32,000 bases of DNA from Acaryochloris marina S15 (lineage in GTDB: Bacteria; Cyanobacteriota; Cyanobacteriia; Thermosynechococcales; Thermosynechococcaceae): NCBI RefSeq assembly GCF_018336915.1, contig NZ_CP064923.1, positions 4,620,001-4,652,000 on the forward strand, given 5' to 3'. Position 1 is the first letter of the stretch. Every line of letters starts with the position of its first letter. Below, in pieces: positions 838 to 20,984 of this stretch. Both the position numbers and the translations under genes were made by a program. The notes beneath the pieces were generated by a model. The model was given only the letters and a program-made list of their open reading frames with translations. It did no database searches and was not told the DNA's origin.

Positions 838-1611
838 CTATTGATTGAATGGCTTTTTAATGTACTTATACTTCAGGATTGGCATGATTAGCTTGTTTTT
901 TGCTTTAAGCCCATACCGTTTAACCTTCTCTTTCAAGCTAATGCGTGGAACTTCGTCATAAGCTAAGTCTTTGGCTAACACACAATGCACATACTGGTTT
1001 TTTCGATCTAAATCCGGGTAGTTAAAATACTGTAATTTGAAATTTCCATGCGCCGCCCATTGGATTAAATCACCAATTTCAATCGTTTCATCGATGACTT
1101 GCAGCTCATCAGGATTATATTGATGTAGATATCTCTGATATTCAGGACTAGGGTACGTTAAAACAACGACAGCGTTCCCCGTTGTAATGCGGTCTAAATT
1201 GGCGAAAAACGATTCATAGTGGTTGGGAGGAAGATGCTCAATCACATCCACCATAGAGACTAAATCGACGGGTTGCTGAATCTTCTCTTCAATTTTTTTG
1301 AATTCATTAATAATATCAACCTTCAAAAAAGTGATATTTTCATTTATTACGGTTTTCTGGGCATAGGCAATATTTTTATCTGCAATATCACAGGCCCAAA
1401 TATGCCCTGTCTTGATCTTGGTTCCAATTTTTTCTGATACCAGTCCGATACCACAACCAATATCCAGGATCTTGCTATCGGGTCGGGTATATTGCCCAAT
1501 TAGTTCTACGGCTTTATCTATGCGCGGATTACCATACAGTCGATAGTTCAACATCCGCGTATCGCGAAATTCATTGTAGTAACTTCTAACTTGTTCTACG
1601 TTGTTGGTCAT
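838..1611 (-). CDS. Class I SAM-dependent methyltransferase
   Basis: 257-aa ORF with an ATG start. SAM-binding motif I is ILDIGCGIG, followed by the acidic loop and a VDVIEHL motif. Confidence 0.8.
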   Translation of the reverse strand: MTNNVEQVRSYYNEFRDTRMLNYRLYGNPRIDKAVELIGQYTRPDSKILDIGCGIGLVSEKIGTKIKTGHIWACDIADKNIAYAQKTVINENITFLKVDIINEFKKIEEKIQQPVDLVSMVDVIEHLPPNHYESFFANLDRITTGNAVVVLTYPSPEYQRYLHQYNPDELQVIDETIEIGDLIQWAAHGNFKLQYFNYPDLDRKNQYVHCVLAKDLAYDEVPRISLKEKVKRYGLKAKNKLIMPILKYKYIKKPFNQ

Positions 1612-1620
1612 TAAGATGTC

Positions 1621-2379: not shown

Positions 2380-2393
2380 TATCCCCCTCTCCA

Positions 2394-3902: not shown

Positions 3903-3936
3903 GGGTTCGGCCTGATTGATCGGTCGACAAACTCAC

Positions 3937-6228: not shown

Positions 6229-6238
6229 AATCTGTATT

Positions 6239-7363
6239 TCAACTTATAGAAGGAACAAAAGAATTTTGATTAATCGTTTGAGCGGGATAAATTTGGTTAA
6301 TAACTTGATGGATTTTTTGAAAGAAGACGGGTTCGGAAAAGTGTGACAGGGCATGGTTTCGAATGTATTGATAGTCCCATTCGATCTGTTGCGATCGCAC
6401 GAGTGCTGCCTGCAGAGATGAGGCTGTTTGTTTATTGAAAAACACACCCGTCTGGCCTGGAACTTGGGTATCGAGTACACCACCCGCACCAAAAGAAACC
6501 ACTGGCGTTCCGCTGGCATTTGCTTCAACGGGAACCAAACCATAATCTTCTAGGGCTGCCACGACCACTGCTTTAGCTTTGGCCATCAGATGACAGCGCT
6601 CTGCATCAGAGATATATCCTAGAAATTCGACGTTTGATTTAGCTCGACGTTCTAAATGCTCCCGTTCCGGGCCATCTCCCATAATCTTCAAAGGCCAACC
6701 CAACTGATTAAACGCATCAATAATAACGTCAACACGCTTATAGCCCAACAATCGGGCAGATACTAAGAAAAAATCTTCTTTTTGGTCCGAAAAAGAAAAT
6801 TTAGAATTATCAATTGGATAGTTGACTACAATCGCTTGCTTACTATAAGTCGATTGGATACGGCCGGCGACTTCAGTCGAATTAGCAATATATAGATCGG
6901 GCTCTTGGGCATAGGCGAGATCAGCCTTCCTCATGACCCGAAACATTTTCTCGATAAAAGGGTAGAGATGCTGATAGTCTGCATACTCTCTCAAATAGGT
7001 TTGGGTGTCCCACAGAAAACGAGTGATGTTATGGCAAAAGCAGATATGTTTTGCATCCGATCGGGTTCGCACCGCTTTAGCAAAGCTGGTGCTACTGCTA
7101 ATAATTAGGTCATATTTCTGTAAATCCAACGCTCTAAAAGCTGGATAATAGAAAGGAGCCAACAGCCTAAAATACTTGGTTGCCCCTGGTAATTTCTGTA
7201 AAAGAGTTGTATGAACAAGTCGATCGCCCAACTCTATCGTTTGTTGTGGATCGTATAGAGAAGTGAATATATCTGCACTGGGGAAGTGACGACACAACAG
7301 CTCGAAAACCCTCTCAGCGCCTCCGCGTTGGGTTAGATAGTCATGAACTAGGGCAATCTTCAT
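6239..7363 (-). CDS. Glycosyltransferase family 4 (GT-B)
   Basis: 374 aa. The N-terminus MKIALVHDYLTQRGGAERV and the E-x7-E region EDYGLVPVEANASGTPVV are typical of GT4 retaining transferases. Confidence 0.85.
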   Translation of the reverse strand: MKIALVHDYLTQRGGAERVFELLCRHFPSADIFTSLYDPQQTIELGDRLVHTTLLQKLPGATKYFRLLAPFYYPAFRALDLQKYDLIISSSTSFAKAVRTRSDAKHICFCHNITRFLWDTQTYLREYADYQHLYPFIEKMFRVMRKADLAYAQEPDLYIANSTEVAGRIQSTYSKQAIVVNYPIDNSKFSFSDQKEDFFLVSARLLGYKRVDVIIDAFNQLGWPLKIMGDGPEREHLERRAKSNVEFLGYISDAERCHLMAKAKAVVVAALEDYGLVPVEANASGTPVVSFGAGGVLDTQVPGQTGVFFNKQTASSLQAALVRSQQIEWDYQYIRNHALSHFSEPVFFQKIHQVINQIYPAQTINQNSFVPSIS

Positions 7364-7821: not shown

Positions 7822-9636
7822 TTATCGATAGTTCTGAGCTTGGGTTTCAAACATCGATGCATAGACCCCATTCAGGTTCATCAGCGTATTATGATTACCT
7901 TCTTCAATCATGTGACCTTGTGACATCACATAAATATAGTCCGCCATCTTAACTGTCGACAATCGGTGACTAATCAAAATGGCGGACTGATCTTGTATGA
8001 GCTCCCGAAACTGTTGGAAAACCTCATACTCAGCTTTGGGGTCCATTGCACTGGTTGGCTCATCCAGAACAATCACTTGGGAATCTCGAAGAAAGGCACG
8101 AGCCAAAGCGATTTTCTGCCACTGCCCAATACTGAGTTCTTCTCCCTGATCAAACATCTTGCCTAAGACAGTATCGTACCCTTGAGGTAACGACTGGATC
8201 ACTCTATCGGCCCCGGATAGTTGAGCCGCCGATCGGATTCGATGCTCATCGGCAGGTCTCTCAATATTCCCTAACTGGATATTCTCTCGGGCAGTGAAAT
8301 GGTATTTAGCATAATCTTGAAAGATGACGCTGATATGGCTTTTCAGCTCAAGCTTGCTAAAGTTTTTGAGATCAATCCCATCAATTGTGATATTCCCTTC
8401 AGTAGGATCGTAAAGCCGACAAAGTAGCTTAATTAATGTCGTTTTGCCAGAACCATTTTCACCCACTAAAGCAATGACTTGTCCTGGCTGAAGCTTGAGA
8501 GAAACATTGTGAATAGCTTGACGCTGGGTCGTTACATATTGAAAGCTCACATTATTGAAGGCAACTCCAGTGGCTAAACTCCCTGGAAAAGGCTGCGGGC
8601 ATTCTGGCTCCAAAACTTTTGATTCTATATCTAAAAACTCGTATAGATTCGCAAGGAACAAATTATCCTCATAAAGTCCAGATAGACTCCGTAACAAACC
8701 CTTCAGACTATTTTGGCCTTTTTGCAGTGCCTGATAGTAGAGAACTAAATCCCCTAATTTGAGCACTCCCAACAAAGTTTGTTGGACCATATAGACAAAG
8801 ATGGCAAATACAAACAGTCCTGCAATTACCTGGGCTCCAAAAAAGGCAAAGGATCGTTTGGAAACTATGCCTACTTTTTCTTTATAGATTATTTCCCGTA
8901 ACTGGGAATATCTGTGTTTGAAATGTTCTCCTAAGTTAAATAGACGAATTTCCTTGGCAAACAAATCGCTGGTTTGTAACCACCCCAAATACATCGCCTG
9001 CCGTTCCAGCTGAGTACGACGACGCTTCCAGTGGTACATCACCCCTGCAAACTTCATCCGCACCAACACAGTCGGAATAGCAGCAACAAACAAAATCCCC
9101 ACAATGCTCCAATGCAAGGCTAATAACAATCCCAACATTGCGATCAGTGAAATTGAACTTTGCCCGGCCAAGGCTAACCGATCCAGGATACGGGGAGGGC
9201 GATAGGGAGCCTCTTGTTGTGCCCGCTGCAAGGCATCATAATACTGGGCATTTTCGTAATACTCTAAGTCGGCTGAAATAGATTTAGAGTGGATAATGCC
9301 CTGCATATAATCCGTGACCCGCTGAGCATGAGCAATGGTAACCAAGTCCGATAGCGAGGCAAAGAAGGTCGTACTAATCGTCAAGCAAGCGGCAACAACC
9401 AATAAAGGAACGATATCGTTGATCGCTGATGCCCGGTTAGAGAGTGCTAAGCTAATCGTCACTTGGTCGACAATCAGCTTAGTCATATAAATGGAAAATA
9501 AGGGTAGGATGCCCTGAATGATGACCAAGCCAATGCGCGCCAAAGTCCAGTTAGGACCGCTTTGCCAAACCAATTTCAAAGCTGGTATGAAGTGCAAGGG
9601 ACGTTTGAATCTTGCTTTGATAAATCCAGTCAGCAT
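7822..9636 (-). CDS. ABC transporter, fused permease and ATPase; candidate lasso-peptide exporter (D protein)
   Basis: 604 aa with an N-terminal 6-TM domain. Walker A is GENGSGKTT, the signature is LSIGQWQKIALARA and Walker B is VIVLDEPTSAMD. It is co-directional with the two precursor genes and lies immediately downstream of them. Confidence 0.85.
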   Translation of the reverse strand: MLTGFIKARFKRPLHFIPALKLVWQSGPNWTLARIGLVIIQGILPLFSIYMTKLIVDQVTISLALSNRASAINDIVPLLVVAACLTISTTFFASLSDLVTIAHAQRVTDYMQGIIHSKSISADLEYYENAQYYDALQRAQQEAPYRPPRILDRLALAGQSSISLIAMLGLLLALHWSIVGILFVAAIPTVLVRMKFAGVMYHWKRRRTQLERQAMYLGWLQTSDLFAKEIRLFNLGEHFKHRYSQLREIIYKEKVGIVSKRSFAFFGAQVIAGLFVFAIFVYMVQQTLLGVLKLGDLVLYYQALQKGQNSLKGLLRSLSGLYEDNLFLANLYEFLDIESKVLEPECPQPFPGSLATGVAFNNVSFQYVTTQRQAIHNVSLKLQPGQVIALVGENGSGKTTLIKLLCRLYDPTEGNITIDGIDLKNFSKLELKSHISVIFQDYAKYHFTARENIQLGNIERPADEHRIRSAAQLSGADRVIQSLPQGYDTVLGKMFDQGEELSIGQWQKIALARAFLRDSQVIVLDEPTSAMDPKAEYEVFQQFRELIQDQSAILISHRLSTVKMADYIYVMSQGHMIEEGNHNTLMNLNGVYASMFETQAQNYR

Positions 9637-9996: not shown

Positions 9997-10038
9997 GTTT
10001 GTATCAATATTCAGTTTATAGATAACTGAAAAGGATGA

Positions 10039-10179
10039 CTATGACGTTACATCATCAATATCACCGGCAGGAATCGTCCCAAAAGGCACATCTGTCGCAT
10101 TAAATGACGGTGAATTCTTAGTCATATCTTCTACGCTGCCATACACCTTCAACTGAGGTGCACCATAGGATCTTTTCAT
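10039..10179 (-). CDS. Lasso peptide precursor A2 (46 aa)
   Basis: Hand translation gives MKRSYGAPQLKVYGSVEDMTKNSPSFNATDVPFGTIPAGDIDDVTS*. An AAGGAG Shine-Dalgarno lies 12 nt upstream of the ATG. The leader fits the lasso RRE-recognition pattern Y-x2-P-x-L-x3-G-x5-T-x. Too short for the ORF track. Confidence 0.85.
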   Translation of the reverse strand: MKRSYGAPQLKVYGSVEDMTKNSPSFNATDVPFGTIPAGDIDDVTS

Positions 10180-10259
10180 GGTCTTAGCTTACTCCTTACT
10201 TAATTTGTCTTTAGCTGTTCTGGCTTATGCATATGGAAGCATTTGCCAATTAACAGCGT

Positions 10260-10277
10260 CTAATTGTTGTCAATTAG
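10260..10277 (-). promoter_or_regulatory. Conserved palindrome or hairpin in the A2 5' region
   Basis: The plus strand reads CTAATTG-TTGT-CAATTAG, a 7-bp perfect stem. It lies about 85 nt upstream of the A2 ATG. Confidence 0.4.
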
Positions 10278-10372
10278 GTGTTTTACCCCCCAGGTCAGCT
10301 GTGAAACAATTCAAGCTGGACCACGACGCAAACATTCTAGCAACAATCAAAAAATCGTGGCTGGGTAATAAA

Positions 10373-10513
10373 CTATGACGTTATATCATCAATATCCCCA
10401 GCAGGAATGGTTCCAAATGGCACATCGATAGCATTCACCGATGGCGCATTCTTTGTCATATCTTCTACGCTTCCGTAAGCCCTCAATTGAGGTGCATCAT
10501 AAAATTTTTTCAT
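10373..10513 (-). CDS. Lasso peptide precursor A1 (46 aa)
   Basis: Hand translation gives MKKFYDAPQLRAYGSVEDMTKNAPSVNAIDVPFGTIPAGDIDDITS*. It has an AAGGAG Shine-Dalgarno upstream and the same Y-x2-P-x-L-x3-G-x5-T-x leader. Its stop directly abuts the duplicated upstream region of A2. Confidence 0.85.
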   Translation of the reverse strand: MKKFYDAPQLRAYGSVEDMTKNAPSVNAIDVPFGTIPAGDIDDITS

Positions 10514-10803: not shown

Positions 10804-12777
10804 CTATTGCGTGGATTCTGCAAAATTGGAGCTTAGATTAGCTTGTTGTAGCCAAAGAATCAAGTTAACGGCAATCCAAATCAGTAAAGTGTCGTTAGCT
10901 TCAGCATGTCCTGTGTGCCATCGATTGACTAGGTTAGTCAGCTCTTGCATATCAATAAAGTCTGCAATGGCATCAGGAGGATGACTGAGGACCTGGTGGA
11001 TCAAGTCCGTACCGTATTTCTCTAGGGTATGGTCAAACGCTGTGCCCAAATTTCCTTTCCCTGCGCGCCACTGAATTTGGGGAGGAAGAATACCTTCGAG
11101 TCCACGTCTGATAATCAACCGAGTCCAACCATTTTGCATCTTCTGCTCCTCTGGTAGAGAGACACAAAATTCTACTAACCGCTTATCCCAAAAGGGAAAT
11201 CGCAATTCAATTTGGGATGCGGCGGCTGTTCGATCCATCACTTCTAGGGTCGAAGAGACTAAGCCAGACGTAACATCAACGATATGTTCATGACGTTGAG
11301 ATGGTTGTGCGCCAAAGCGCTGACGACGCAACTGTTTATAGCGCTGTAGCACTGATGCCCGATCGATAAAGTCTGGGCTAAGGGGAATGGCCCAAGGCAT
11401 TGCTGGAGCTGCCTGTGATGCACTAGGGTCTTGCTGTCCACGAGATTGCCAAGTGTTGACTTTACGAATAATTTTGGTGATCTTTGTCTTCTTGAGGAGG
11501 GGGTTGATGCCAAATTTACGGACATAGGACCGATACAGTGGCCATAAGTCGTAACCGAAGCTTTGACAAAACCCGCTCATCTCGCGCCATAACTTGAGCC
11601 AATGTCCCGCTTTGGCAAGGGTGCGCAAATACCCTACTCCATGGGATACCGCCTGATCACCATCAAAGCCATCCAATAACACCCGGACGGATTGGCCCTG
11701 AGCGATTTGATATAAGGCATGGGTTAAGTGGGAGTTACAGGCAAATAAGGGTTCGTCTTGAAGGGCCAACATCTGCTGATAATCTGTCCAGGGTCCGAGT
11801 TGATCTCCCTGTACATACTGAGGCTCGATAGGCCGCTGATGAACCACTGCATTAATGAATTCCTGTTCATCAGATGCCGTTATTTCATTAAACACGGCAG
11901 AGAAGGTGGGGAATTTAGCGGTCTCTTGTGCCTCCTGTCTCAACTGGGCAGTCATACAGGTGATGGAGGAGGAGTCAATGCCACCACTTAACATCGTGCC
12001 CACGGGAAATGCACTTCTGAGGCGACAGCGCACTGCTTCGGTAAAAATAGCTTGAAACTGTTCAGCATAGGCTTGATCGGACTCAAGCTGTAGTTCAACG
12101 TCAGGATCGAGAGACCAGTAGGATGAGATGTCCAGATTGTTTTTGCTCACCGTCATCCGGTGAGCAGGAGGAAGTCGCAGGATCTGCTCATAGAAGGTCA
12201 TTTCTGAATCAAACAACATGAGGGTCAGATAGTCGGCGACTCTGGTTTCATTTAAGGCTTTAGGCACTTCTGGCAGGTGAAACAGCGCTTTCATTTCGCT
12301 TGCAAAGGCAAACACCTGTTCAGAGGCATAGTAAAAGAAAGGCTTGACCCCAAAATGATCGCGGGCACAAAACAAATGCTGTTGAGTGGCATCCCAGAGG
12401 GCAAAGGCAAAGTCACCCAGGAGAAATTCAGGACATTGTTCACCCCATTTTTCGTAGGCAGCAAGAATGAGAGCGCTATCGGTAATAACTTCGGATGTAG
12501 GCTGTTCCAGGCCCAACTGGGTCATCAGATCAGCACGATTATCAATCCGCGCGTCGGCAGTGAGGACTAAGGTTTGGGAGGCATTGCTGAGAGGAGGCGT
12601 TTCAAACCGGGATTCTGGGGTTGTCTGTAATAAACAATGGCCGAGGCCAACCTGATCTTGACTCCATATATTTGTCCCATCCGGTCCCCGATGGGACAGA
12701 GATTGGACCATTTGATGCAGATGATCAATCCCCCCAGGATGAGGGTGAGGATAAACAAAGCCAGTAATTGCGCTCAT
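10804..12777 (-). CDS. Lasso peptide cyclase (C protein), asparagine synthetase B-like
   Basis: 657 aa. The N-terminal Ntn-like domain starts MSAITGF, so it lacks the Cys2 glutaminase nucleophile, as is usual for lasso cyclases. The PP-loop ATP pyrophosphatase motif is MLSGGIDSSSIT. Confidence 0.9.
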   Translation of the reverse strand: MSAITGFVYPHPHPGGIDHLHQMVQSLSHRGPDGTNIWSQDQVGLGHCLLQTTPESRFETPPLSNASQTLVLTADARIDNRADLMTQLGLEQPTSEVITDSALILAAYEKWGEQCPEFLLGDFAFALWDATQQHLFCARDHFGVKPFFYYASEQVFAFASEMKALFHLPEVPKALNETRVADYLTLMLFDSEMTFYEQILRLPPAHRMTVSKNNLDISSYWSLDPDVELQLESDQAYAEQFQAIFTEAVRCRLRSAFPVGTMLSGGIDSSSITCMTAQLRQEAQETAKFPTFSAVFNEITASDEQEFINAVVHQRPIEPQYVQGDQLGPWTDYQQMLALQDEPLFACNSHLTHALYQIAQGQSVRVLLDGFDGDQAVSHGVGYLRTLAKAGHWLKLWREMSGFCQSFGYDLWPLYRSYVRKFGINPLLKKTKITKIIRKVNTWQSRGQQDPSASQAAPAMPWAIPLSPDFIDRASVLQRYKQLRRQRFGAQPSQRHEHIVDVTSGLVSSTLEVMDRTAAASQIELRFPFWDKRLVEFCVSLPEEQKMQNGWTRLIIRRGLEGILPPQIQWRAGKGNLGTAFDHTLEKYGTDLIHQVLSHPPDAIADFIDMQELTNLVNRWHTGHAEANDTLLIWIAVNLILWLQQANLSSNFAESTQ

Positions 12778-12797: not shown

Positions 12798-14015
12798 TTA
12801 GGAATGAGAAGTGGGTTCAATCTCTTTAATCATGAGAAATCCCTCTTGAATCAAGTTCTGAGTTAAGGACAATCTGCCAGCATCATTAATCAAACCACCA
12901 ATATCTTTTATGGCCAGACAGGAATGGTCGATCAGATCGGTCAGGGAAGCCGCTAGAAAGATAGGAAAGGTTAGGCTTTTTTGATAGAAGTTCAAAATAA
13001 TTTGGGTTGAACTTCTATCAACTGAAAATAGGATATTGGGCCTACGGGCAACGACAGAATCGAGATTGAGCTGTGGCAGATGGATCAGGTCTTGGAAGCG
13101 GCCTTGGTCTTCTGATTTGCGATCGCACAAAAATACCCCATTCTTCCGCTCCACCAATTCTTTGGTCTTCACCCTATTCATTAAGGACTGGCTCAGGGTT
13201 TGAAACGATTCATCAAAAGCCTGCTGTTGCTCAGAACTGGAAAAACCGTGGGGAATCGCTTTCCGAAAGGCCGGGTCAGCCTGGGCAATGGTGACCAACT
13301 CCTCCAAGAGTTCGTAAGCAAAGGTGGGATATAACCCTAGGGATGCGTGGACTGAAGTGGTTTCTTGACTGGCCGCTTGATGGACCACACCCCGAGGAAT
13401 ATAGAGCAAATCACCAGGCTGGAGCATTACCGTTAACTCTGGCTCAGCCAGTTCATGGCGGCCAATACTTTGATCTCTGATGTGAGAGGGTAGCTCAACG
13501 GGGGAATGGTAGAGTTTCCATTCTTTCTCCCCGGTGATTTGGAGAATAAACACATCATGTTCGTCGTAATGAGGTGCTAAACCCTGGGCTTGGGGGGGCG
13601 TGATGTAGATATTGGTTCGGAGCTTAAACTTCAGCTCGCATTCTAGGGCACTACAAAAGTGTCGCAGCTTGGGAATTTTCTTGTGGGCCCCGTTGATGGT
13701 CAAGGTTAAGCCCTGGTGCAACAAGCTATACAGCTTGTCATTGTCAATAAAATATTGTTGGGATTTAGAGTGGCGTTCGCACCAGTCTTCCAGACTTAGC
13801 TTATTGCCCTGATCCACTAGGCGGAAGTTATTGTAATCCGCCAACAAAGCTTTGTTTTGCAGCAGTAGATCGATGTCGCCTGGATCTAGGACCGACCCAT
13901 AAAAAAAGGCATCATTCCTGGGCAAATGAAGCGTTTTTGCTTCCCAATAGGTCTGGAAAAAATCTTCAATCGTGCAGGGAGCGATTAAACGGGCAAACTG
14001 AGACTCAACCTTCAT
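12798..14015 (-). CDS. JmjC/cupin-4 Fe(II)/2OG oxygenase, ribosomal-oxygenase (YcfD/RoxA, COG2850)-like
   Basis: The N-terminus FFQTYWEAKTLHLPRND resembles the YcfD start. The facial triad is H-Y-D in GLAPHYDEHDVFILQ plus the distal His in LLYIPRGVVHQ. The ATG at 14015 overlaps the kinase stop by 11 nt (ATGAAGGTTGA). The track start at 14036 is a TTG. Confidence 0.75.
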   Translation of the reverse strand: MKVESQFARLIAPCTIEDFFQTYWEAKTLHLPRNDAFFYGSVLDPGDIDLLLQNKALLADYNNFRLVDQGNKLSLEDWCERHSKSQQYFIDNDKLYSLLHQGLTLTINGAHKKIPKLRHFCSALECELKFKLRTNIYITPPQAQGLAPHYDEHDVFILQITGEKEWKLYHSPVELPSHIRDQSIGRHELAEPELTVMLQPGDLLYIPRGVVHQAASQETTSVHASLGLYPTFAYELLEELVTIAQADPAFRKAIPHGFSSSEQQQAFDESFQTLSQSLMNRVKTKELVERKNGVFLCDRKSEDQGRFQDLIHLPQLNLDSVVARRPNILFSVDRSSTQIILNFYQKSLTFPIFLAASLTDLIDHSCLAIKDIGGLINDAGRLSLTQNLIQEGFLMIKEIEPTSHS

Positions 14016-14910
14016 GGGCCAGGATGTGATTTTCAACTAGGGTAGCAATGTCCGGCAGTAAATCTAAGGAAGCTGGTCGTAGAAGACGCAAGAGAGGCAC
14101 CTGTTGAGCCAGTATCATCAGTTGCTTAAAATGGCTGGCCCCTCGCTCCTGCAATAAAGTTTGCTCAAAGCGGGTGACATAGGAGTTTTGCATCAAATGT
14201 TGAATAATCTCCTGGGGCGGCAACGGCTTAATGGCGACTTCGTCTCCTTGCCCCAGCACAAAAATATATCTAAGAGGCAGAATGTCAGCCATAAAGCCCG
14301 AAGAGAGCTGATGATTCCGTTTTTCTAAGCGGGCACCTAATCGCGGCAAATCTTCGGGTTGCTTGCCAATGCAAGCGACGGCATCTGGCCACAGCTTAAT
14401 TTGAGGAAAGGCAGGTTGCACCTGAATTTGATGACGTTGGATTTCCAGGGCCACCACATCATCCGCAATTAAGCTATGGCCTCGATCATGCAAGGTAGCT
14501 GCCATCGTGGATTTGCCCCACCGTTTTTGACCGATAAAGGCCACGGCTTCGCCTTCTAAGGCCACAGCGCTGGCATGGAGGACCAAAAATCCTCGTTGGT
14601 GCAATACGACCCCCATCACCGCGCCTAGAATAAACAGGCGAAGGCGATCCTCATCCAGATCGATCTCTAAATCAATCAGGACATCTTGCCCTTCCTGAAT
14701 CAAAAACGTCCCCACTCCCTGCCAATATAAATACATCCCCGCATCTGTATTTTGATAGCAATGCAGGGTGTTTTCGGTTTGCAAAGGACTATCGGTAATG
14801 GCACCAAAATGAATCCAAACATCCGCATCAGTTGCCAGGGTAGAGATCAGTTCTGGCAGTTGAATTTCAGACTGTAGGGTCAAGCCATAGGCTGAGTAAA
14901 AGTGGGACAT
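14005..14910 (-). CDS. HPr kinase-like (HprK-related) kinase; candidate lasso precursor Ser kinase
   Basis: 301 aa with P-loop GQKRWGKSTMAA followed by LIADDVV, as in the HprK C-terminal domain. It sits inside the lasso operon, and both precursors end in Ser. Confidence 0.75.
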   Translation of the reverse strand: MSHFYSAYGLTLQSEIQLPELISTLATDADVWIHFGAITDSPLQTENTLHCYQNTDAGMYLYWQGVGTFLIQEGQDVLIDLEIDLDEDRLRLFILGAVMGVVLHQRGFLVLHASAVALEGEAVAFIGQKRWGKSTMAATLHDRGHSLIADDVVALEIQRHQIQVQPAFPQIKLWPDAVACIGKQPEDLPRLGARLEKRNHQLSSGFMADILPLRYIFVLGQGDEVAIKPLPPQEIIQHLMQNSYVTRFEQTLLQERGASHFKQLMILAQQVPLLRLLRPASLDLLPDIATLVENHILAHEG

Positions 14911-15043
14911 GGCAATTGCGGTTATCCAGACTCAAAGAATAACGTTTTTAGGCGATTTTTGCCTTAAGCAATCAGGGTTAGATATTTGAGAAAGATAAAG
15001 TAGAGCCTGGAGAATCAATCCTGCAGATATAGACCGCCAATCC

Positions 15044-15973
15044 CTACCGTGGGTCCATAGGCAGGATTTTCTTGAGGTTGGACTTGAGTTTTTTCAGGAA
15101 CGGTTGAGCGGATTTAGGGGAGTTGGCAGTAAACAGCTCATAGATTAACTGTTCGAATAGCGGATTGGGCACCATGGGGTCTGGGTGAATCATGGCATCT
15201 AGGTCCAAATTAAAGGTCGGCAACTCATTCAGACCTTGGTTTCCTTGGGTATGACTGCCTTGAGTACCAATATTAGAAACCAGATTGACCTTGGGCACCA
15301 CGGTAAGACCATTCTGGGCAAGACAAGAATAAAACCACGGAATATCCCAAACTTGTTGGTTTTGATAAGCCCAGTCAAATAATTGGGTAACCCAATCTGC
15401 TAGGGCTGGCTGCGGAAAAAATTGGGCCTGTCGATACTGAGGCCAGCCCGTCATTTTGAGGTCGTAGCATTGCCAAGCCCTGCGCCAAGAGGCCCATCCC
15501 CAAGACACAAAAAATTTAGAAAACACATAGGTCTGGGGAATCGGTAAGGTATCTCCCAGAAAATTACTGCCGGAGATAGTCATCACTTGAGATAGATGAC
15601 GGTACTGGGCCAACATGGCTTGGCAAAAAGGGAAAAAACTGGGATGGGGAAGACAATCATCTTCTAAAATGATCGCTTCTTCCACCTGAGAGAACACCCA
15701 ATCCAACCCCTGGGCATTGCAACACCGCCCCCCAAGATTCGAGTCTGAAAAATGGGTGAGCACCTCGCACTCCCAATCCACTTGATCGACAATGGCTCTA
15801 GCTTGCTGGCATAATTTTTGGTCCTCTGGAACATCAGCTCTCGGGCCATCTGCAACGATTAACAAAGCTTGTGGTTTGGCCTGGGCAATCGCGGCAAACA
15901 CCTGACTGGAATATTGAGGGCGATTGAAAATATGAAACGCAACGGGAGTGGAAAGGGGCATCAGGAGTGCCAT
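15044..15973 (-). CDS. GT-A fold glycosyltransferase, GnT-I (GT13)-like
   Basis: 309 aa. It has an N-terminal Rossmann-like strand PVAFHIFNRP. The motif IILEDDCLPHPSFF closely resembles the GnT-I EDD motif (EDD-x4-P-x-FF). Confidence 0.6.
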   Translation of the reverse strand: MALLMPLSTPVAFHIFNRPQYSSQVFAAIAQAKPQALLIVADGPRADVPEDQKLCQQARAIVDQVDWECEVLTHFSDSNLGGRCCNAQGLDWVFSQVEEAIILEDDCLPHPSFFPFCQAMLAQYRHLSQVMTISGSNFLGDTLPIPQTYVFSKFFVSWGWASWRRAWQCYDLKMTGWPQYRQAQFFPQPALADWVTQLFDWAYQNQQVWDIPWFYSCLAQNGLTVVPKVNLVSNIGTQGSHTQGNQGLNELPTFNLDLDAMIHPDPMVPNPLFEQLIYELFTANSPKSAQPFLKKLKSNLKKILPMDPR

Positions 15974-15991
15974 GGAAGAAGAAGCGGAATT

Positions 15992-16600
15992 TCAGACAAA
16001 CCAGCTGACAATCGAGAAGCGCTCACCATAGGTGACCGGTTTAACTTCATGCCAGAGATCGGATCGAAACGCAATCAGTTGACCTTGTTCAGGCTCCAGA
16101 GGGAAGCCATAGTTTTGACCGCGAGCATCATCAAGTAATCCATAGAGGGCTAAGGCTCCGCCCCCAAAGGTCTGAGGACTAGGCTCAGCGGACATACTGT
16201 TGAGGAAAATAATTAAAGACACCAGTCGATTTTTTTCAAACTTAGAGCCCGGTAGGCTCGGATCGATGACATCTCGATGAAGGCCAAAAAAGTCGCCCAC
16301 TTGATAGCGATAGCAGGAGGGGGGTTCTAAGTCCTGGAGTTGGACCTGGAAATGGGTTTCTAATCGCGGCTTAATAGCAATTAAGCGCTCACGAATGCTC
16401 TGGGCCGTGGTTTGACTTATTTGCAACTGGCCCGTTTTTCGTCGACTATTGTCGGTCACAGCCTCACCATATCTTGTGAGGCGAGCGGGCTCACAGGGGC
16501 AGGTCTGTGCTTCCGTGAGGTAGGACTCACAAAATTGTGGATCTAAAAAGCCGGGGTCAACAAATACCCCCAAGCGTTCAAAAAAAGCAGCGCTAGGCAT
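15992..16600 (-). CDS. 2OG-Fe(II) oxygenase, prolyl-4-hydroxylase-like
   Basis: 202 aa. The HxD is in FGLHRDV, the distal His is in DLWHEVKPV, and the 2OG-binding Arg is in ERFSIVSW. Confidence 0.75.
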   Translation of the reverse strand: MPSAAFFERLGVFVDPGFLDPQFCESYLTEAQTCPCEPARLTRYGEAVTDNSRRKTGQLQISQTTAQSIRERLIAIKPRLETHFQVQLQDLEPPSCYRYQVGDFFGLHRDVIDPSLPGSKFEKNRLVSLIIFLNSMSAEPSPQTFGGGALALYGLLDDARGQNYGFPLEPEQGQLIAFRSDLWHEVKPVTYGERFSIVSWFV

Positions 16601-16670: not shown

Positions 16671-17129
16671 TTAGATCTTGGAATCAAATGATGGCATTGG
16701 TGTAAAGCGGGATAAGTCATTCACAAAGCCCATGATCACTTGCCCTTGCAACTCAACCCAGGCATGGGCTTCTAGAGAATGGTCTTCTGCTTTAGCAACC
16801 CCAATTTTTAGCTCGGGTTCATAGCCTCGCCGACAAATTAACACTTGAGTGACGAGGGCTCGAGCTAAACATTTCACCTTTCCTGGCATAAAGCGGCTGC
16901 TGGTGTTCACTGCCCAGACCACTTTACCTACGGTCCTACGACTAATCTTAGTCAGGGTAGGCGATTGATAGTAAGCAGACGTTTGGTGAAAGTTGACCAG
17001 CCATTTTTGCAGGATTTTGAAGGGTAGCAACCACAACCCCAATCGAACCAAGCCCAAGAGAACGTAGGTTTTGATCAGGAGGGTGCGATCGCAACTTCGC
17101 AACCGCAAAAATTTAAGCACTGGCGACAT
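16671..17129 (-). CDS. Lasso peptide leader peptidase B2 (transglutaminase-like Cys protease)
   Basis: The catalytic Cys context is KCLARALVTQVL and the His context is LEAHAWVEL. The ATG at 17129 overlaps the end of B1 by 17 nt. The track start at 17141 is a TTG. Confidence 0.85.
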   Translation of the reverse strand: MSPVLKFLRLRSCDRTLLIKTYVLLGLVRLGLWLLPFKILQKWLVNFHQTSAYYQSPTLTKISRRTVGKVVWAVNTSSRFMPGKVKCLARALVTQVLICRRGYEPELKIGVAKAEDHSLEAHAWVELQGQVIMGFVNDLSRFTPMPSFDSKI

Positions 17130-17418
17130 CTTTGATCTCAATCAATTCCGATTCAGCCATCTCATTTAGCAACCTCATGACATCTTGTTCACACTGGTCC
17201 GACCCAACTTCGTATTGATCTAAAATTTGGTCGCAGATATCTTTAACCGATCGAGGTTGCTGAAGTAAATTCCAAACACTTGCACCCACTTCATTCAAAC
17301 CGAAGTACATTCCTGTCTTCAGGTTGAGGATAACTGATTCCCCGGCTAAGTCAGATGAGACTTGCTCTGGGGTCGCAACAACCGTTGTATTCGTTGAAAT
17401 AGTGGTAGTCAAACTCAT
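17113..17418 (-). CDS. Lasso peptide B1 protein (PqqD-like RiPP recognition element)
   Basis: 101 aa. The PqqD/RRE pattern is ESVILNLKTGMYFGLNEVGASVWNLL. It lies directly upstream of B2 and is translationally coupled to it. Confidence 0.85.
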   Translation of the reverse strand: MSLTTTISTNTTVVATPEQVSSDLAGESVILNLKTGMYFGLNEVGASVWNLLQQPRSVKDICDQILDQYEVGSDQCEQDVMRLLNEMAESELIEIKDVASA

Positions 17419-17607: not shown

Positions 17608-18810
17608 TTACCTTTTTGAATTGCAGAATTTTTCAACGCAACGCACAAAGATTTCCACTCCCATGGCTAAAGCAGTCTCATCAAAATCGAATTGGGGATG
17701 GTGGTGGGGATAGGCTAATCCTCGCTCGTCATTGGCTGAACCCAAAAAGAAGTAGCAACCTGGAACTTCTTGCAAAAAGAAGGACATGTCTTCCCCTCCC
17801 ATGGTTTGACAGTTGGGAACCACACCTGTTGGTGTTTCAATCACTTCAGTACTGATGGAGCGTACTAAATCTGCGATCGCAGCATCATTTATCACAGGTG
17901 GATACAGTCGCCAATACTTTAAGTCGTAGGTGGCTCCCCAACTTTGACAAATCCCCGTCAGGATATCCTGCATACGCGGCTCAATCAGATGGGCCAATTC
18001 TGGGTCAAAGTAGCGAACCGTGCCGCTCATAAAGCTGGAGTCGGCAATCACATTAGAAGCTGTGCCCGCATGGAGTTGTCCGATGGTCACCACAGCTGAA
18101 TCGAGGGGATTGACATGGCGAGCCACAATGGCTTGGAGGGCGTTGACGATTTGAGCGCTGATCACCACTGCATCCGTGGTTTGGTGAGGCATGGCGCCAT
18201 GTCCCCCCTTGCCCTGAATCTTGCATTCAAATAGATCCACGGCAGCCATCAGCGGCCCTGATTTGACGCCAACGGTGCCGAGGGGGAGATTGTTCCATAA
18301 GTGCAGGCCAATAATGGCATCAACTTGCGGGTTTTGCAGAACACCCGCCTCAATCATGGGCTTGGCCCCACCCGGAGATTCTTCAGCAGGCTGGAAAATG
18401 ATCTTGACCGTACCGGCAAAGTCTTGGCGATGTTGAGATAAATAGCGGGCTGTTCCCAGAGCAATGGCCGTATGTCCATCATGGCCGCAGGCATGCATGA
18501 CCCCATCGTGGCGTGACCGATAGGAAACCGTATTCTCTTCCTGAATGGGCAAGGCATCTATGTCTGCCCGAATCGCTAACACTGGCCCCGGTTGTGCCCC
18601 AGAGATCGTGGCCATGATACCCGTTTCAGCAATGCCTGTTTGATGGTCAATGCCCCATTCTGTTAAGCGCTGAGCTACAAATTCAGCAGTGAGATGCTCT
18701 TTGAATCCAAGTTCTGGATATTGATGCAGATGCCGTCGCCAAGAGACTAAATCCAGTTGTTGGATATCTGAGCGAATGGAGGTATCAGAATGAGGAGGAG
18801 AAGAAACCAT
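17608..18810 (-). CDS. M20D-family amidohydrolase (N-acyl-L-amino acid amidohydrolase / hippurate hydrolase-like)
   Basis: 400 aa with motifs LHQYPELGFKE, MHACGHDGH, FQPAEE and GGEDMSFF, characteristic of M20 peptidases. Confidence 0.85.
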   Translation of the reverse strand: MVSSPPHSDTSIRSDIQQLDLVSWRRHLHQYPELGFKEHLTAEFVAQRLTEWGIDHQTGIAETGIMATISGAQPGPVLAIRADIDALPIQEENTVSYRSRHDGVMHACGHDGHTAIALGTARYLSQHRQDFAGTVKIIFQPAEESPGGAKPMIEAGVLQNPQVDAIIGLHLWNNLPLGTVGVKSGPLMAAVDLFECKIQGKGGHGAMPHQTTDAVVISAQIVNALQAIVARHVNPLDSAVVTIGQLHAGTASNVIADSSFMSGTVRYFDPELAHLIEPRMQDILTGICQSWGATYDLKYWRLYPPVINDAAIADLVRSISTEVIETPTGVVPNCQTMGGEDMSFFLQEVPGCYFFLGSANDERGLAYPHHHPQFDFDETALAMGVEIFVRCVEKFCNSKR

Positions 18811-20084: not shown

Positions 20085-20984
20085 TTAGATAGAAGCATAG
20101 AGCTGCTCTGCCAGGATAGAGATCTCATCTTCCATCGTTAGTAACTCTAGCCAATGGCTAGGTATACCCTGCACACCATAAAAAGCACCTGCCAATTGAC
20201 CACAAATAGCAGCCGTAGTATCAGCATCATCCCCAAGATTGGTTGCTTGCAGAACCGCCTGTGCAAAAGTTTCTGTGGTCCAGAAACACCAAAGAGCCGC
20301 TTCTAGACTATCTACGACATAGCCAGAACCTCGAATATCTTCCAATGTTTTGCTTTGATAATCTCCCTTGGCTATAGCTTGTATCGAAGGAGAAATTATA
20401 CCTGCTGGTTCTTGCTCCATAAGGATTTCAACTTTGCCAACTCCTGATAAGGCGCGAAAGAGCATATCACCAAATAATTGGCTGGCCTCAATACATTCTG
20501 TAGCCCCATGAGTGGTACGCGAACTTTCACCACATAGATACAAGGTGCGATCGCGATCTGGGTAGCAGAACATAGGTACTGGGGCCAATCGCATCAAACA
20601 CCCATTCCCAGCTGATCTAGGGTGAGTAGAGCCACTGAAAAGGATATCTGTAGTCTTGTATTGCTCTAAAGCTTGCCTAACAGTATTTCCAATATCGAAA
20701 CAGTCACCTGTACTGCTGAGATAGCCTTTTTCATACCAATCACAGTAGCGATTCATCTGATCTGCCGCGTCAAATTTACCTTTTTGAATCAGGCTAGTGG
20801 CAAGACATAAGGCCATTGAGGTATCGTCCGTCCATTGTCCTGGTTGCAGATGAAACGGACCGCCGCCCACCATATCGGTGACGGGGGCAAAGGTTCCTCG
20901 CGGCTGAAACTCTACCGTTGTCCCAACGGCATCACCGACTGCCAACCCCAGTAAACATCCTCTGAATCGTTCGGATATATCCAT
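20085..20984 (-). CDS. ADP-ribosylglycohydrolase family protein (DraG/ARH-like)
   Basis: 299 aa. The N-terminus RFRGCLLGLAVGDAVGTTVEF and the C-terminal GDDADTTAAICGQLAGAFYG are the hallmark metal-binding motifs of this family. Confidence 0.85.
   Translation of the reverse strand: MDISERFRGCLLGLAVGDAVGTTVEFQPRGTFAPVTDMVGGGPFHLQPGQWTDDTSMALCLATSLIQKGKFDAADQMNRYCDWYEKGYLSSTGDCFDIGNTVRQALEQYKTTDILFSGSTHPRSAGNGCLMRLAPVPMFCYPDRDRTLYLCGESSRTTHGATECIEASQLFGDMLFRALSGVGKVEILMEQEPAGIISPSIQAIAKGDYQSKTLEDIRGSGYVVDSLEAALWCFWTTETFAQAVLQATNLGDDADTTAAICGQLAGAFYGVQGIPSHWLELLTMEDEISILAEQLYASI

What the first reader, a model, noticed from the sequence alone, without database searches (positions are those of the whole stretch)
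12798..16600. Two distinct Fe(II)/2OG oxygenases plus a GnT-I-like glycosyltransferase embedded in a RiPP operon
The 412-aa protein belongs to the JmjC/cupin-4 'ribosomal oxygenase' type (YcfD/RoxA-like N-terminus, with HYD...H triad present). Those enzymes hydroxylate protein side chains (Arg, His). The 202-aa protein is a P4H-type oxygenase with HRD...H and a 2OG-binding Arg. Between them lies a GT-A enzyme whose IILEDDCLPHPSFF motif mimics the GnT-I EDD motif. The core has three Pro, four Asp, two Asn and no Arg or His. Likely chemistry is therefore Pro and/or Asp/Asn hydroxylation. O-glycosylation of the new hydroxyl or of Ser/Thr/phospho-Ser may follow. The P4H-plus-GlcNAc-transferase pairing is reminiscent of eukaryotic Skp1 hydroxyproline glycosylation; that analogy is speculation. 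I am not aware of a JmjC ribosomal-oxygenase homolog being assigned to a lasso peptide.
Basis: inference. Interest (0 to 1): 0.75.

Follow-up and report, generated by a model that had tools for sequence, protein, structure and literature searches.

The report
Lasso peptide operon with four tailoring enzymes
A cyanobacterial (Acaryochloris marina) lasso-peptide gene cluster carries two different iron/2-oxoglutarate oxygenases, a GnT-I-like sugar transferase and a kinase. This combination was not found in the literature I could search, and it predicts a hydroxylated, glycosylated and phosphorylated knotted peptide.

Summary
Window 12798-16600 (minus strand) holds three intact enzymes.

- **JmjC oxygenase:** 405/412 aa, ribosomal-oxygenase (ROX) type. 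Its model matches NO66 over the full length.
- **2OG oxygenase:** 202 aa, PKHD/prolyl-hydroxylase type.
- **GT-A glycosyltransferase:** 309 aa. Its best structural matches are POMGnT1 and GnT-I (GT13).

All four sit between lasso genes B1/B2 and C, two 46-aa precursors and an ABC exporter.

Comparative genomics shows:
- The JmjC gene travels with the kinase in lasso clusters of at least nine lineages.
- The P4H-type oxygenase belongs to a clade widely embedded in lasso clusters.
- The GT is a single recruitment from a polysaccharide-cluster family. It is found only in an Acaryochloris-like clade and always next to the P4H gene.

The chemistry is inferred, not shown. [quoted passage not shown]

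The Skp1 analogy holds only for the logic; the GT is of a different family. I found no paper describing this enzyme set. Verdict: a new variant of a known kind, of moderate to high interest.

The parts
17113..17418 (-). Lasso B1, a PqqD-type leader-binding protein (RRE)
   Evidence: Pfam PqqD 2.6e-21. NCBIfam lasso_PqqD_Bac 83.9 bits, above its cutoff of 80.
16671..17141 (-). Lasso B2 leader peptidase (transglutaminase-like)
   Evidence: Pfam Transglut_core3 1.2e-30. NCBIfam lasso_biosyn_B2 119.7 bits.
15992..16600 (-). PKHD/prolyl-hydroxylase-type Fe(II)/2OG oxygenase, 202 aa
   Evidence: Pfam 2OG-FeII_Oxy_3 2.4e-15. H108, D110, H184 and R194 invariant. Family-profile hits in PDB: PKHD hydroxylase 3dkq 3.9e-9, Chlamydomonas P4H 2.6e-7, PiuC, a chain deposited as 'Putative uncharacterized protein' (4iw3, which I recall as Pseudomonas PPHD), P3H1. 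Homologues at 45-50% identity sit in other lasso clusters.
15044..15973 (-). GT13-like GT-A glycosyltransferase, 309 aa, no curated family
   Evidence: AF2 model pLDDT 89.8. Foldseek top hits: POMGnT1 1.7e-11, GnT-I 4e-11, GnT-II 9e-9. Invariant E104/D106/C107, D42 and H241. Weak PF03071 hit, E 0.055, residues 90-171. Lasso-linked members form one clade.
14005..14910 (-).
   Evidence: Pfam Hpr_kinase_C 6e-7, below the gathering score. NCBIfam HprK_rel_A 1.6e-8, below cutoff. Walker-A-like GQKRWGKST is visible in the sequence. Present in every JmjC-bearing lasso locus.
12798..14036 (-). JmjC ribosomal-oxygenase-type Fe(II)/2OG oxygenase; likely CDS 12798-14015, 405 aa
   Evidence: Pfam JmjC_2 3.2e-31. 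AF2 model pLDDT 93.5. Full-length Foldseek match to NO66 at TMq 0.73, MINA53 0.65, YcfD 0.53-0.55. H149, D151, H212 and K164 invariant. The ATG at 14015 overlaps the kinase stop by 11 nt.
10804..12777 (-). Lasso cyclase C (asparagine-synthetase-like)
   Evidence: NCBIfam lass_lactam_cya 892 bits against a cutoff of 525. Pfam Asn_synthase 2.5e-51.
10373..10513 (-). Precursor A1: MKKFYDAPQLRAYGSVEDMTK / NAPSVNAIDVPFGTIPAGDIDDITS
   Evidence: ORF. NCBIfam lasso_cyano 32.0 bits against a cutoff of 33. YxxP leader motif and Thr at -2. Identical peptide in several Acaryochloris genomes.
10039..10179 (-). Precursor A2: MKRSYGAPQLKVYGSVEDMTK / NSPSFNATDVPFGTIPAGDIDDVTS
   Evidence: ORF. NCBIfam lasso_cyano 31.3 bits. 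UniRef names the MBIC11017 copy 'Lasso peptide'.
7822..9636 (-). ABC exporter (lasso D)
   Evidence: Pfam ABC_tran 7.3e-34. Syntenic in all related clusters.

Best explanation
The interval is the tailoring block of a lasso-peptide operon in Acaryochloris marina: B1-B2-[P4H-type oxygenase]-[GT13-like GT]-[HPr-like kinase]-[JmjC/ROX oxygenase]-C-A1-A2-ABC.

**Shown**
- All four tailoring proteins keep the catalytic residues of their families.
- The genes are tightly packed or overlapping.
- The kinase and the JmjC gene are co-inherited in lasso clusters across distant lineages.
- The P4H-type enzyme belongs to a clade that is habitually lasso-embedded.
- The GT is a single recruitment from a polysaccharide-GT family, and in lasso context it is always adjacent to the P4H gene.

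**Inferred mechanism**
1. As with known lasso tailoring enzymes (PadeK/ThcoK, CanE, MslH), the enzymes act on the linear precursor held by B1.
2. The kinase phosphorylates the conserved C-terminal Ser.
3. The JmjC enzyme hydroxylates one side chain. The best candidate is the conserved Asp four residues from the C-terminus (motif I-x-D-[VI]-[TA]-S), giving beta-hydroxy-Asp.
4. The P4H-type enzyme installs a second hydroxyl. Pro is favoured by family and the site is unknown.
5. The GT then attaches a sugar, probably a HexNAc from a UDP-sugar using its EDD/Mn2+ site. The acceptor would be the hydroxyl made by the P4H-type enzyme.
6. B2 and C cut and cyclise the peptide (Asn1-Asp9 ring if Thr is at -2), and the ABC transporter exports it.
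For: **Identity and intact active sites:**

**Operon packing:** P4H to GT gap 18 nt; the kinase stop overlaps the JmjC ATG; JmjC to C gap 20 nt. In L170 the P4H and GT genes overlap by 4 nt.

**JmjC with kinase and lasso genes:**
- Found together in Acaryochloris, Calothrix, Scytonematopsis, Nostoc, Dapis, Coleofasciculus, Chlorogloeopsis, Pyrinomonadaceae and Bryobacteraceae loci.
- 9 of 10 relatives at 41% identity or more among GTDB species representatives are in such clusters.

**P4H-type clade in lasso clusters:**
- L085 has B2-P4H-C; L087 has PqqD, two cyclases, a precursor and a kinase.
- 19 of 29 metagenome loci of 6 kb or more carry at least one lasso or kinase gene by tblastn.

**GT linked to the P4H gene:**
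- All lasso-linked GT clusters (P0001-P0009) have the P4H gene next door where the contig allows.
- They are monophyletic.
- L005 has the P4H gene without the GT, and L006 has neither. The reverse, GT without P4H, was not seen.
- L006 keeps the neighbouring EPS genes, so the GT is not part of that EPS cluster.

**Asp lead:** an Asp lies in the last five residues in 14 of 15 JmjC-linked cores, against 3 of 14 P4H-only cores. Only D, G and S occur in every JmjC-linked core.

**Precedents:** PadeK Ser phosphorylation and CanE beta-OH-Asp on linear precursors with B1 help (PMC9266682). JmjC hydroxylases in other RiPPs: CzlI (PMC11575548) and BpmG/PbsQ (PMC12257519).
Against: - No product data exist; every chemical step is inference.
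- The Asp correlation rests on about nine lineages that are not independent, and Asp is abundant in these cores.
- Pro occurs in clusters with and without the P4H gene (for example, DVP is conserved in L006-L013), so the P4H target is unresolved. YbiX/PiuC-type relatives have no known substrate.
- GT13 enzymes and the polysaccharide-cluster relatives of this GT use sugar acceptors, not peptide hydroxyls (established for GnT-I and POMGnT1). A peptide acceptor would therefore be new for this fold family.
- The evidence that GT presence depends on the P4H gene comes from one clade.
- L001, L088 and L171 lack B1/B2 nearby, so some copies may be incomplete.
- I could not show that the JmjC C-terminal domain is a leader-binding RRE (hhalign probability 28%).
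Confidence: 0.55

Rival explanations
1. Phospho-glycosylation, as in pseudomycoidin. The GT adds its sugar to the phosphate placed on the C-terminal Ser by the kinase, or directly to Ser/Thr. The P4H-type oxygenase acts independently elsewhere on the peptide.
For: A kinase and a conserved C-terminal Ser are present. Hexose on phospho-Ser is the one chemically defined kinase-linked lasso glycosylation (PMC9266682, PMC11912497). The kinase gene lies directly downstream of the GT.
Against: The kinase is present in many related clusters that have no GT, whereas the GT occurs only where the P4H gene is present and directly after it. The pseudomycoidin enzyme is a nucleotidyltransferase homologue, not a GT-A of GT13 type.
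Confidence: 0.2
2. Swapped or different residue specificities. The P4H-type enzyme makes beta-hydroxy-Asp/Asn (as CanE does in canucin). The JmjC enzyme hydroxylates another residue (Pro, Val, Ile, Phe or Thr of the conserved DVPxGT motif), or performs non-hydroxylating chemistry.
For: CanE is an Fe/2OG Asp hydroxylase of a lasso peptide (PMC9266682). JmjC enzymes in RiPPs hydroxylate Phe (CzlI, PMC11575548) or ornithine-type residues (PMC12257519). DVPxGT is invariant in the group I JmjC-linked cores.
Against: Group II JmjC-linked cores lack DVPxGT altogether. Only D, G and S are common to all JmjC-linked cores. Every solved relative of the P4H-type profile with an assigned substrate is a prolyl hydroxylase.
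Confidence: 0.2
3. One or more of the three genes are bystanders. Examples: the GT serves the adjacent exopolysaccharide cluster, the JmjC protein is a housekeeping ribosomal oxygenase, or the cluster is decaying.
For: The GT family is otherwise found in polysaccharide clusters. An EPS cluster lies just downstream at 838-7363. ROX enzymes classically act on ribosomal proteins. Some relatives lack B1/B2. One JmjC relative at 41% identity is an orphan.
Against: The genes lie inside the operon between B2 and C with 18-20 nt gaps or overlaps. The sister strain locus L006 has the same EPS genes but no GT. The JmjC-kinase-lasso linkage recurs across phyla. Catalytic residues are intact.
Confidence: 0.07

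Closest known systems
Paeninodin-type phosphorylated lasso peptides (PadeK, ThcoK)
   Same: An HPr-kinase-like gene sits inside a lasso cluster. The C-terminal Ser is conserved in the precursors. Split B1/B2 and an ABC exporter are present.
   Different: Those clusters have no oxygenases and no GT-A glycosyltransferase. The kinase here scores below curated thresholds for HPr-kinase families.
Canucin A / CanE (Streptomyces canus)
   Same: An Fe(II)/2OG hydroxylase tailors a lasso precursor. The target there is an Asp at the C-terminus, and an Asp near the C-terminus is my lead for the JmjC enzyme here.
   Different: That cluster has one oxygenase and no kinase or GT. I could not obtain the CanE sequence, so its relation to either oxygenase here is untested.
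Pseudomycoidin (PsmK/PsmN) and davasins (IgtG), the known glycosylated lasso peptides
   Same: A lasso peptide carrying sugar. Pseudomycoidin couples a kinase with glycosylation.
   Different: PsmN is a nucleotidyltransferase homologue. IgtG was assayed in microsomes and acts on the mature lasso (PMC11912497). The GT here has no predicted membrane anchor, is GT13-like and is paired with an oxygenase.
Ribosomal oxygenases NO66, MINA53 and YcfD (JmjC_2, PF08007)
   Same: Full three-domain architecture: JmjC, helical domain and C-terminal winged-helix-like domain. TMq is 0.73 to NO66. The HxD...H triad and the 2OG-binding Lys are conserved.
   Different: The known substrates are ribosomal proteins (His or Arg C3-hydroxylation). 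The precursors here have no His or Arg, and the gene sits in a RiPP operon.
JmjC hydroxylases in other RiPP pathways: CzlI (curacozole) and BpmG/PbsQ (biphenomycin-like)
   Same: A JmjC-type Fe/2OG enzyme hydroxylates a ribosomal peptide side chain.
   Different: CzlI is YxbC-like rather than NO66-like (PMC11575548). They belong to different RiPP classes, and none is in a lasso cluster.
Hydroxylase-then-glycosyltransferase pairs: Skp1 PhyA/Gnt1, collagen PLOD/COLGALT1, plant Hyp-O-glycosylation
   Same: The logic is shared: a 2OG oxygenase creates a hydroxyl that a GT-A enzyme then glycosylates. COLGALT1 appears among the weaker structural hits (ranks 21-27).
   Different: The GT families differ (GT60, GT25 or GT95 against GT13-like here). 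Those systems are eukaryotic and act on proteins. The dependence is only inferred here.
GT13 GlcNAc-transferases GnT-I and POMGnT1
   Same: They are the best structural matches. The EDD motif sits at the same region of the Pfam GNT-I profile.
   Different: Sequence identity is 12-16% and Pfam scores are below the gathering threshold. They are eukaryotic Golgi enzymes acting on mannose acceptors. Relatives of the window protein sit in bacterial polysaccharide clusters.

Membership tests
Lasso peptide biosynthetic gene cluster | Leader-binding PqqD/RRE (B1), transglutaminase-like peptidase (B2) and Asn-synthetase-like cyclase (C) | tested here: met
   NCBIfam lasso_PqqD_Bac, lasso_biosyn_B2 and lass_lactam_cya are all above cutoff.
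Lasso peptide biosynthetic gene cluster | Short precursor with a YxxP leader motif, Thr at -2 and an Asp/Glu at core position 7-9 | tested here: met
   FYDAPQL...MTK/NAPSVNAID gives Thr at -2 and Asp9. NCBIfam lasso_cyano scores 32.0 and 31.3 bits, just under its cutoff of 33.
Lasso peptide biosynthetic gene cluster | Threaded lariat product | not testable with these tools
   Needs isolation plus NMR or MS and protease/heat tests.
JmjC ribosomal oxygenases (ROX; Pfam JmjC_2 PF08007) | Pfam score above the gathering threshold | tested here: met
   107.9 bits against a cutoff of 22.
JmjC ribosomal oxygenases (ROX; Pfam JmjC_2 PF08007) | HxD...H iron triad and 2OG-binding Lys | tested here: met
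   H149, D151, H212 and K164 are invariant in 69 sequences and aligned to the MINA53 motif.
JmjC ribosomal oxygenases (ROX; Pfam JmjC_2 PF08007) | Three-domain architecture: JmjC, dimerisation helices and C-terminal winged-helix-like domain | tested here: met
   Full-length Foldseek match to NO66, about 450 aligned columns, TMq 0.73. Model pLDDT 93.5.
JmjC ribosomal oxygenases (ROX; Pfam JmjC_2 PF08007) | Substrate is a ribosomal protein (Arg or His C3-hydroxylation) | not testable with these tools
   Context argues against it: the gene is inside lasso operons in nine or more lineages, and the cores here lack Arg and His.
PKHD / prolyl-4-hydroxylase-type 2OG oxygenases (Pfam 2OG-FeII_Oxy_3) | Pfam score above threshold; HxD...H triad and a distal Arg for 2OG | tested here: met
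   57.7 bits against a cutoff of 27. H108, D110, H184 and R194 invariant.
PKHD / prolyl-4-hydroxylase-type 2OG oxygenases (Pfam 2OG-FeII_Oxy_3) | Hydroxylates peptidyl proline | not testable with these tools
   Solved relatives include P4H, P3H1 and EGLN1, the chain 4iw3 that I recall as PPHD (the table names it only 'Putative uncharacterized protein'), and also the uncharacterised YbiX/PiuC types. Pro is present in the cores but does not discriminate.
CAZy GT13 (GnT-I / POMGnT1; Pfam GNT-I PF03071) | GT-A fold closest to GT13 structures | tested here: met
   Top Foldseek hits: 5ggi 1.7e-11 and 1fo8/1fo9/1foa about 4e-11, TMq 0.49-0.58.
CAZy GT13 (GnT-I / POMGnT1; Pfam GNT-I PF03071) | Pfam GNT-I score above the gathering threshold | tested here: not met
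   12.7 bits against a cutoff of 25.4, E 0.055. 23 of 38 relatives hit weakly, best 6e-6. No PDB sequence hit even with a family profile.
CAZy GT13 (GnT-I / POMGnT1; Pfam GNT-I PF03071) | EDD metal/nucleotide motif | tested here: met
   E104 and D106 are invariant and D105 is at least 90% conserved. They lie in the stretch aligned to the GNT-I profile. Residue-level superposition was not inspected.
CAZy GT13 (GnT-I / POMGnT1; Pfam GNT-I PF03071) | UDP-GlcNAc donor and mannose acceptor | not testable with these tools
   Needs enzyme assays.
Skp1-type hydroxyproline glycosylation (PhyA + Gnt1) | A P4H-type oxygenase paired with a GT60 polypeptide GlcNAc-transferase acting on the new Hyp | tested here: inconclusive
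   The P4H-type partner and strict adjacency are present. The GT is GT13-like by structure, not GT60 by my own knowledge of Gnt1. No chemistry is available.
Pseudomycoidin-type phosphoglycosylated lasso peptides | Kinase plus a PsmN-type nucleotidyltransferase | tested here: not met
   The kinase is present. No nucleotidyltransferase-type gene is in the operon, and the sugar-transfer candidate is a GT-A.

The most novel reading that the evidence does not exclude
Two things could be new. First, a bacterial branch of the NO66/MINA53-type ribosomal oxygenases may have been re-purposed to hydroxylate small exported peptides. The targets would be an Asp near the C-terminus of lasso peptides and, in other phyla, twin-arginine-exported proteins built of TDxDxG...GRG repeats. 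Second, the P4H-type oxygenase plus the GT13-like transferase may form a bacterial RiPP version of 'hydroxylate then O-glycosylate', giving the first lasso peptide carrying hydroxy-amino-acid-linked sugar together with phosphate.
Probability: 0.25. Interest if true: 0.8.

Novelty: new variant of a known kind. Interest (0 to 1): 0.6.

Why it matters
Known lasso tailoring is sparse, usually one enzyme per cluster. A cluster with four compatible tailoring enzymes would be among the most heavily decorated lasso pathways.

- It would extend the substrate range of ROX-type JmjC oxygenases from ribosomal proteins to RiPPs.
- It would add a new glycosyltransferase fold family to RiPP chemistry.
- It would give peptide engineers two leader-guided hydroxylases and a GT.

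The cluster occurs in the culturable model cyanobacterium Acaryochloris marina MBIC11017 (AM1_1913-1919 region). The predictions can therefore be tested directly by mass spectrometry.

Tried and rejected
1. **Shared recognition motif.** By eye, the TAT-exported TDxDxG repeat proteins next to distant JmjC relatives resembled the lasso tail I(T/D)D(V/I)TS. A PSSM built from 39 repeats did not score JmjC-linked lasso cores above shuffles or above control cores. Rejected.
2. **JmjC C-terminal domain as a PqqD-like RRE.** hhalign against a 43-sequence B1 profile aligned only the last helix, with probability 28%. Not shown. The domain matches the NO66 C-terminal domain instead.
3. **Finding the P4H target.** I compared cores with and without the gene. 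The closest pair differs at Asn6/Ser6, Phe12/Val12 and the PAG/PNP stretch, which is too few sequences. Pro near the ring Asp is also present without the P4H gene. Inconclusive.
4. **Methyltransferase as a recurrent partner of the P4H-type gene.** Seen in L085 and L087, but in only 5 of 91 loci. Dropped.
5. **Promoter and terminator scan of the operon.** Fewer sites than in shuffles. Uninformative.
6. **Literature.** The CanE paper, the RODEO paper and the 2024 Barrett & Mitchell review are not held. Prior bioinformatic mention of these co-occurring genes therefore cannot be excluded.
7. **Sequence searches of the GT against PDB.** Nothing was found with either a single sequence or a family profile. 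Only structure comparison worked.

Full report
**What is in the interval.**
On the minus strand, window 18.8-7.8 kb carries a compact gene row. The genes are, in order:
- M20 peptidase
- B1 (17418-17113)
- B2 (17141-16671)
- a 202-aa protein (16600-15992)
- a 309-aa protein (15973-15044)
- a 301-aa protein (14910-14005)
- a 412-aa ORF (14036-12798)
- a 657-aa protein (12777-10804)
- two 46-aa ORFs (10513-10373 and 10179-10039)
- an ABC transporter (9636-7822)

Curated models identify B1, B2 and the cyclase as lasso genes, all above cutoff. The two small ORFs score just under the cutoff of the cyanobacterial lasso-precursor model, at 32.0 and 31.3 bits against 33. Exact-sequence look-up places the window in an Acaryochloris marina strain. 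The same cluster is in MBIC11017 (AM1_1913-1919 region), CCMEE 5410, 'Moss Beach' and NIES-2412. There the three proteins are annotated only as 'cupin domain-containing', 'hypothetical' and '2OG-Fe(II) oxygenase'.

**The JmjC protein.**
- Pfam JmjC_2 hits at 3.2e-31.
- Sequence hits to solved structures are led by MINA53 and NO66 at about 5e-30. YcfD scores only about 1e-9.
- A 69-sequence alignment keeps H149, D151, H212 and K164 invariant.
- The AlphaFold model (pLDDT 93.5) superposes on NO66 over about 450 columns (TMq 0.73), on MINA53 (0.65) and on YcfD (0.53-0.55). It therefore has the whole three-domain ribosomal-oxygenase architecture.
- Homologues and public annotations are 405 aa. The start is probably the ATG at 14015, which overlaps the kinase stop codon.

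**The P4H-type protein.**
- Pfam 2OG-FeII_Oxy_3 hits at 2.4e-15.
- H108, D110, H184 and R194 are invariant.
- A family profile finds PKHD-type hydroxylases (3dkq, PiuC), algal, viral and bacterial prolyl 4-hydroxylases, P3H1, EGLN1 and the chain 4iw3. The table names 4iw3 only as 'Putative uncharacterized protein'; I recall it as Pseudomonas PPHD.
- The superfamily assignment is sound. The substrate residue is not determined by it.

**The glycosyltransferase.**
- No curated family and no PDB sequence match was found.
- The family is very large, with more than 7,900 hits.
- E104, D106, C107, D42 and H241 are invariant.
- The model (pLDDT 89.8) is a GT-A fold. Its best matches are POMGnT1 and GnT-I (E about 1e-11), then GnT-II, then SpsA and other GT2-type enzymes.
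- 23 of 38 members give sub-threshold hits to Pfam GNT-I over the region containing the EDD motif.
Formal membership of GT13 is not: the Pfam threshold is not met.

The 301-aa protein between the GT and the JmjC gene is HPr-kinase-like. Its hits are partial and below threshold, and it has a P-loop GQKRWGKST. This is the type that phosphorylates the C-terminal Ser of paeninodin-class precursors (PMC9266682). Both precursors end in Ser.

**Distribution of the JmjC gene.**
I scanned one genome per GTDB species with a JmjC family profile and kept 80 loci. tblastn with the window's proteins gave these results:
- JmjC, kinase and B1/B2/C occur together in two Acaryochloris MAGs, Calothrix, Scytonematopsis, Nostoc, Dapis, Coleofasciculus, Chlorogloeopsis, a Pyrinomonadaceae MAG and a Bryobacteraceae MAG.
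- Every JmjC-bearing lasso locus also has the kinase.
- Of relatives at 41% identity or more, 9 of 10 are in such clusters. One Nostoc copy is an orphan.
- More distant relatives, at about 30% identity, are elsewhere.

**Distribution of the P4H-type gene.**
- Homologues at 45-50% identity sit in other, unrelated lasso clusters.
- In a metagenome scan, 19 of 29 loci of 6 kb or more carry at least one lasso or kinase gene by tblastn. This is a lower bound.
- This oxygenase clade is therefore habitually lasso-associated.

**Distribution of the GT.**
- The three non-lasso members I examined all lie in one type of polysaccharide cluster, directly after a flippase and a Methyltransf_21 gene.
- The lasso-linked members (57-100% identical) form one clade in a neighbour-joining tree.
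- In every such case the P4H gene is directly upstream where the contig allows. The gap is 18-36 nt, or a 4-nt overlap in L170.
- L005 has the P4H gene followed directly by the kinase, with no GT.
- L006 has neither P4H nor GT, yet keeps the same downstream GT4/Wzz/Wzx genes. The GT is therefore not a component of that neighbouring EPS cluster.
- The nesting is: GT only with P4H, and P4H only with kinase-type lasso clusters. This fits a sugar that depends on the hydroxyl made by the P4H-type enzyme. It rests on one clade.

**Precursors and possible sites.**
Group I cores (Acaryochloris, Calothrix, Scytonematopsis, Chlorogloeopsis) share x7-8-D-V-P-x-G-T ... I-x-D-[VI]-[TA]-S. Group II cores (Nostoc, Calothrix MO_167, Dapis, Coleofasciculus) are 33-58 residues, rich in Asp, Asn and Gly, and often end in Asp.

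With Thr at -2, which fits all group II and many soil precursors, the window cores begin with Asn and close an Asn1-Asp9 ring. Position 1 is variable in this superfamily.

- Only D, G and S occur in every JmjC-linked core.
- 14 of 15 JmjC-linked cores (8 of 9 lineages) have an Asp in the last five residues, against 3 of 14 cores from P4H-only clusters. Fisher p is 1.2e-4, and the samples are not phylogenetically independent.
- JmjC enzymes are known to C3-hydroxylate Asp and Asn, and CanE makes beta-hydroxy-Asp at the canucin C-terminus (PMC9266682, PMC11575548).

Together these make the conserved Asp at -4 my leading, low-confidence candidate for the JmjC enzyme. For the P4H-type enzyme I could not discriminate. 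Pro is present in almost all cores, with or without the gene.

**Mechanism proposed (inferred).**
1. B1 holds the linear precursor.
2. The kinase phosphorylates the C-terminal Ser.
3. The JmjC enzyme and the P4H-type enzyme each add one hydroxyl.
4. The GT uses its EDD/Mn2+ site and a UDP-sugar to glycosylate the hydroxyl made by the P4H-type enzyme.
5. B2 and C cleave and cyclise the peptide, and the ABC transporter exports it.

Rivals are glycosylation of the phospho-Ser (pseudomycoidin-like), swapped residue specificities, and bystander genes.

**Comparison with what is known.**
Known lasso tailoring includes phosphorylation, Asp hydroxylation (CanE), Trp hydroxylation (enzyme only proposed), phospho-linked hexose (PsmN) and iterative Ser glycosylation of the mature lasso (IgtG) (PMC9266682, PMC8498205, PMC11912497). 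JmjC hydroxylases occur in other RiPP classes (PMC11575548, PMC12257519). A 2025 survey remarked in passing that bacterial PF08007 proteins appear in RiPP-like contexts (PMC12710340).

I found no paper that links a JmjC/ROX enzyme, a PKHD-type oxygenase or a GT13-like GT to a lasso cluster, or that mentions the A. marina locus tags. Several key papers are not in the library. This is a new variant of a known kind.

**Side observation.**
In 20 of 70 non-lasso loci, the distant JmjC relative is flanked by a 100-250-aa protein. That protein has a twin-arginine signal and repeats of [LVI][TS]D[SGA]D[ST]GxY[AS]DxxGxGRG, or a single such motif in the Granulosicoccus group. It matches no Pfam or NCBIfam family. 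These look like dedicated substrates. This supports the idea that this bacterial ROX branch works on small exported polypeptides. A motif shared with the lasso cores was tested and not found.

Noticed in passing
L016-L018, L034, L036, L039, L044, L052, L053, L058, L059, L062, L070, L082 (gene ending about 60-150 nt before the JmjC gene at 10001); also L048, L055, L064, L073, L074, L079: Relatives of the JmjC/ROX protein at about 30% identity are flanked by small proteins. These carry a twin-arginine signal and tandem repeats [LVI][TS]D[SGA]D[ST]GxY[AS]DxxGxGRG. They occur in Alphaproteobacteria, Myxococcota and Granulosicoccus, match no Pfam or NCBIfam family, and look like candidate dedicated substrates.
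   Followed up: partly
L001/L002/L088 and L171: These loci have the same P4H-GT-kinase-JmjC-C-precursor-ABC row (68-84% identical proteins). No B1/B2 genes lie within 8-10 kb upstream; a DUF533 gene on the other strand sits there instead. B1/B2 are either elsewhere in the genome or the cluster is incomplete.
   Followed up: partly
window 10039-10513 (-); L007, L008, L013, L087, L104, L154: With the usual Thr at -2, the first core residue in this lasso superfamily would be Asn, Gln, Lys, His or Ser, rather than the usual Gly, Ala, Ser or Cys. For the window peptides the ring would be Asn1-Asp9. A Thr at -3 with an Ala1-Asp8 ring cannot be excluded from sequence.
   Followed up: partly
L009-L012 (Nostoc CHAB 5844, Calothrix MO_167, Dapis, Coleofasciculus): These JmjC- and kinase-bearing lasso clusters have unusually long (33-58 aa) Asp/Asn/Gly/Ser-rich cores that begin xxGSGGD. 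Four of six end in Asp rather than Ser, although a kinase at about 31% identity is present.
   Followed up: no
L014:7449-13301 (Pyrinomonadaceae MAG): An acidobacterial lasso cluster combines B2, an HPr-like kinase, a sulfotransferase (PF00685, 1.9e-30), B1, the JmjC oxygenase, a precursor ending ...FYRTS, and the cyclase.
   Followed up: partly
window 838-7363 (-): An exopolysaccharide-type gene set lies directly downstream of the lasso ABC gene: GT4, a Wzz/tyrosine-kinase-like protein, a Wzx-type flippase and two methyltransferases. It is syntenic in related strains, including L006, which lacks the GT13-like gene.
   Followed up: partly
window 17608-18810 (-) and 20085-20984 (-): An M20 peptidase lies 190 nt upstream of B1, and an ADP-ribosylglycohydrolase lies further upstream. 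Both are syntenic with the cluster in L168-L170 but absent from L006 and L001. Any role for the M20 peptidase in peptide maturation is unknown.
   Followed up: partly
window 23460-24689 (+): A TnpB/OrfB_IS605-type gene, with HTH_OrfB_IS605, OrfB_IS605 and Cas12f1-like TNB domains.
   Followed up: no
L023:10001-11221 (Nostoc MAG): A JmjC homologue at 41% identity stands alone with no lasso or kinase genes within 10 kb. It is the only close relative outside a lasso context.
   Followed up: partly
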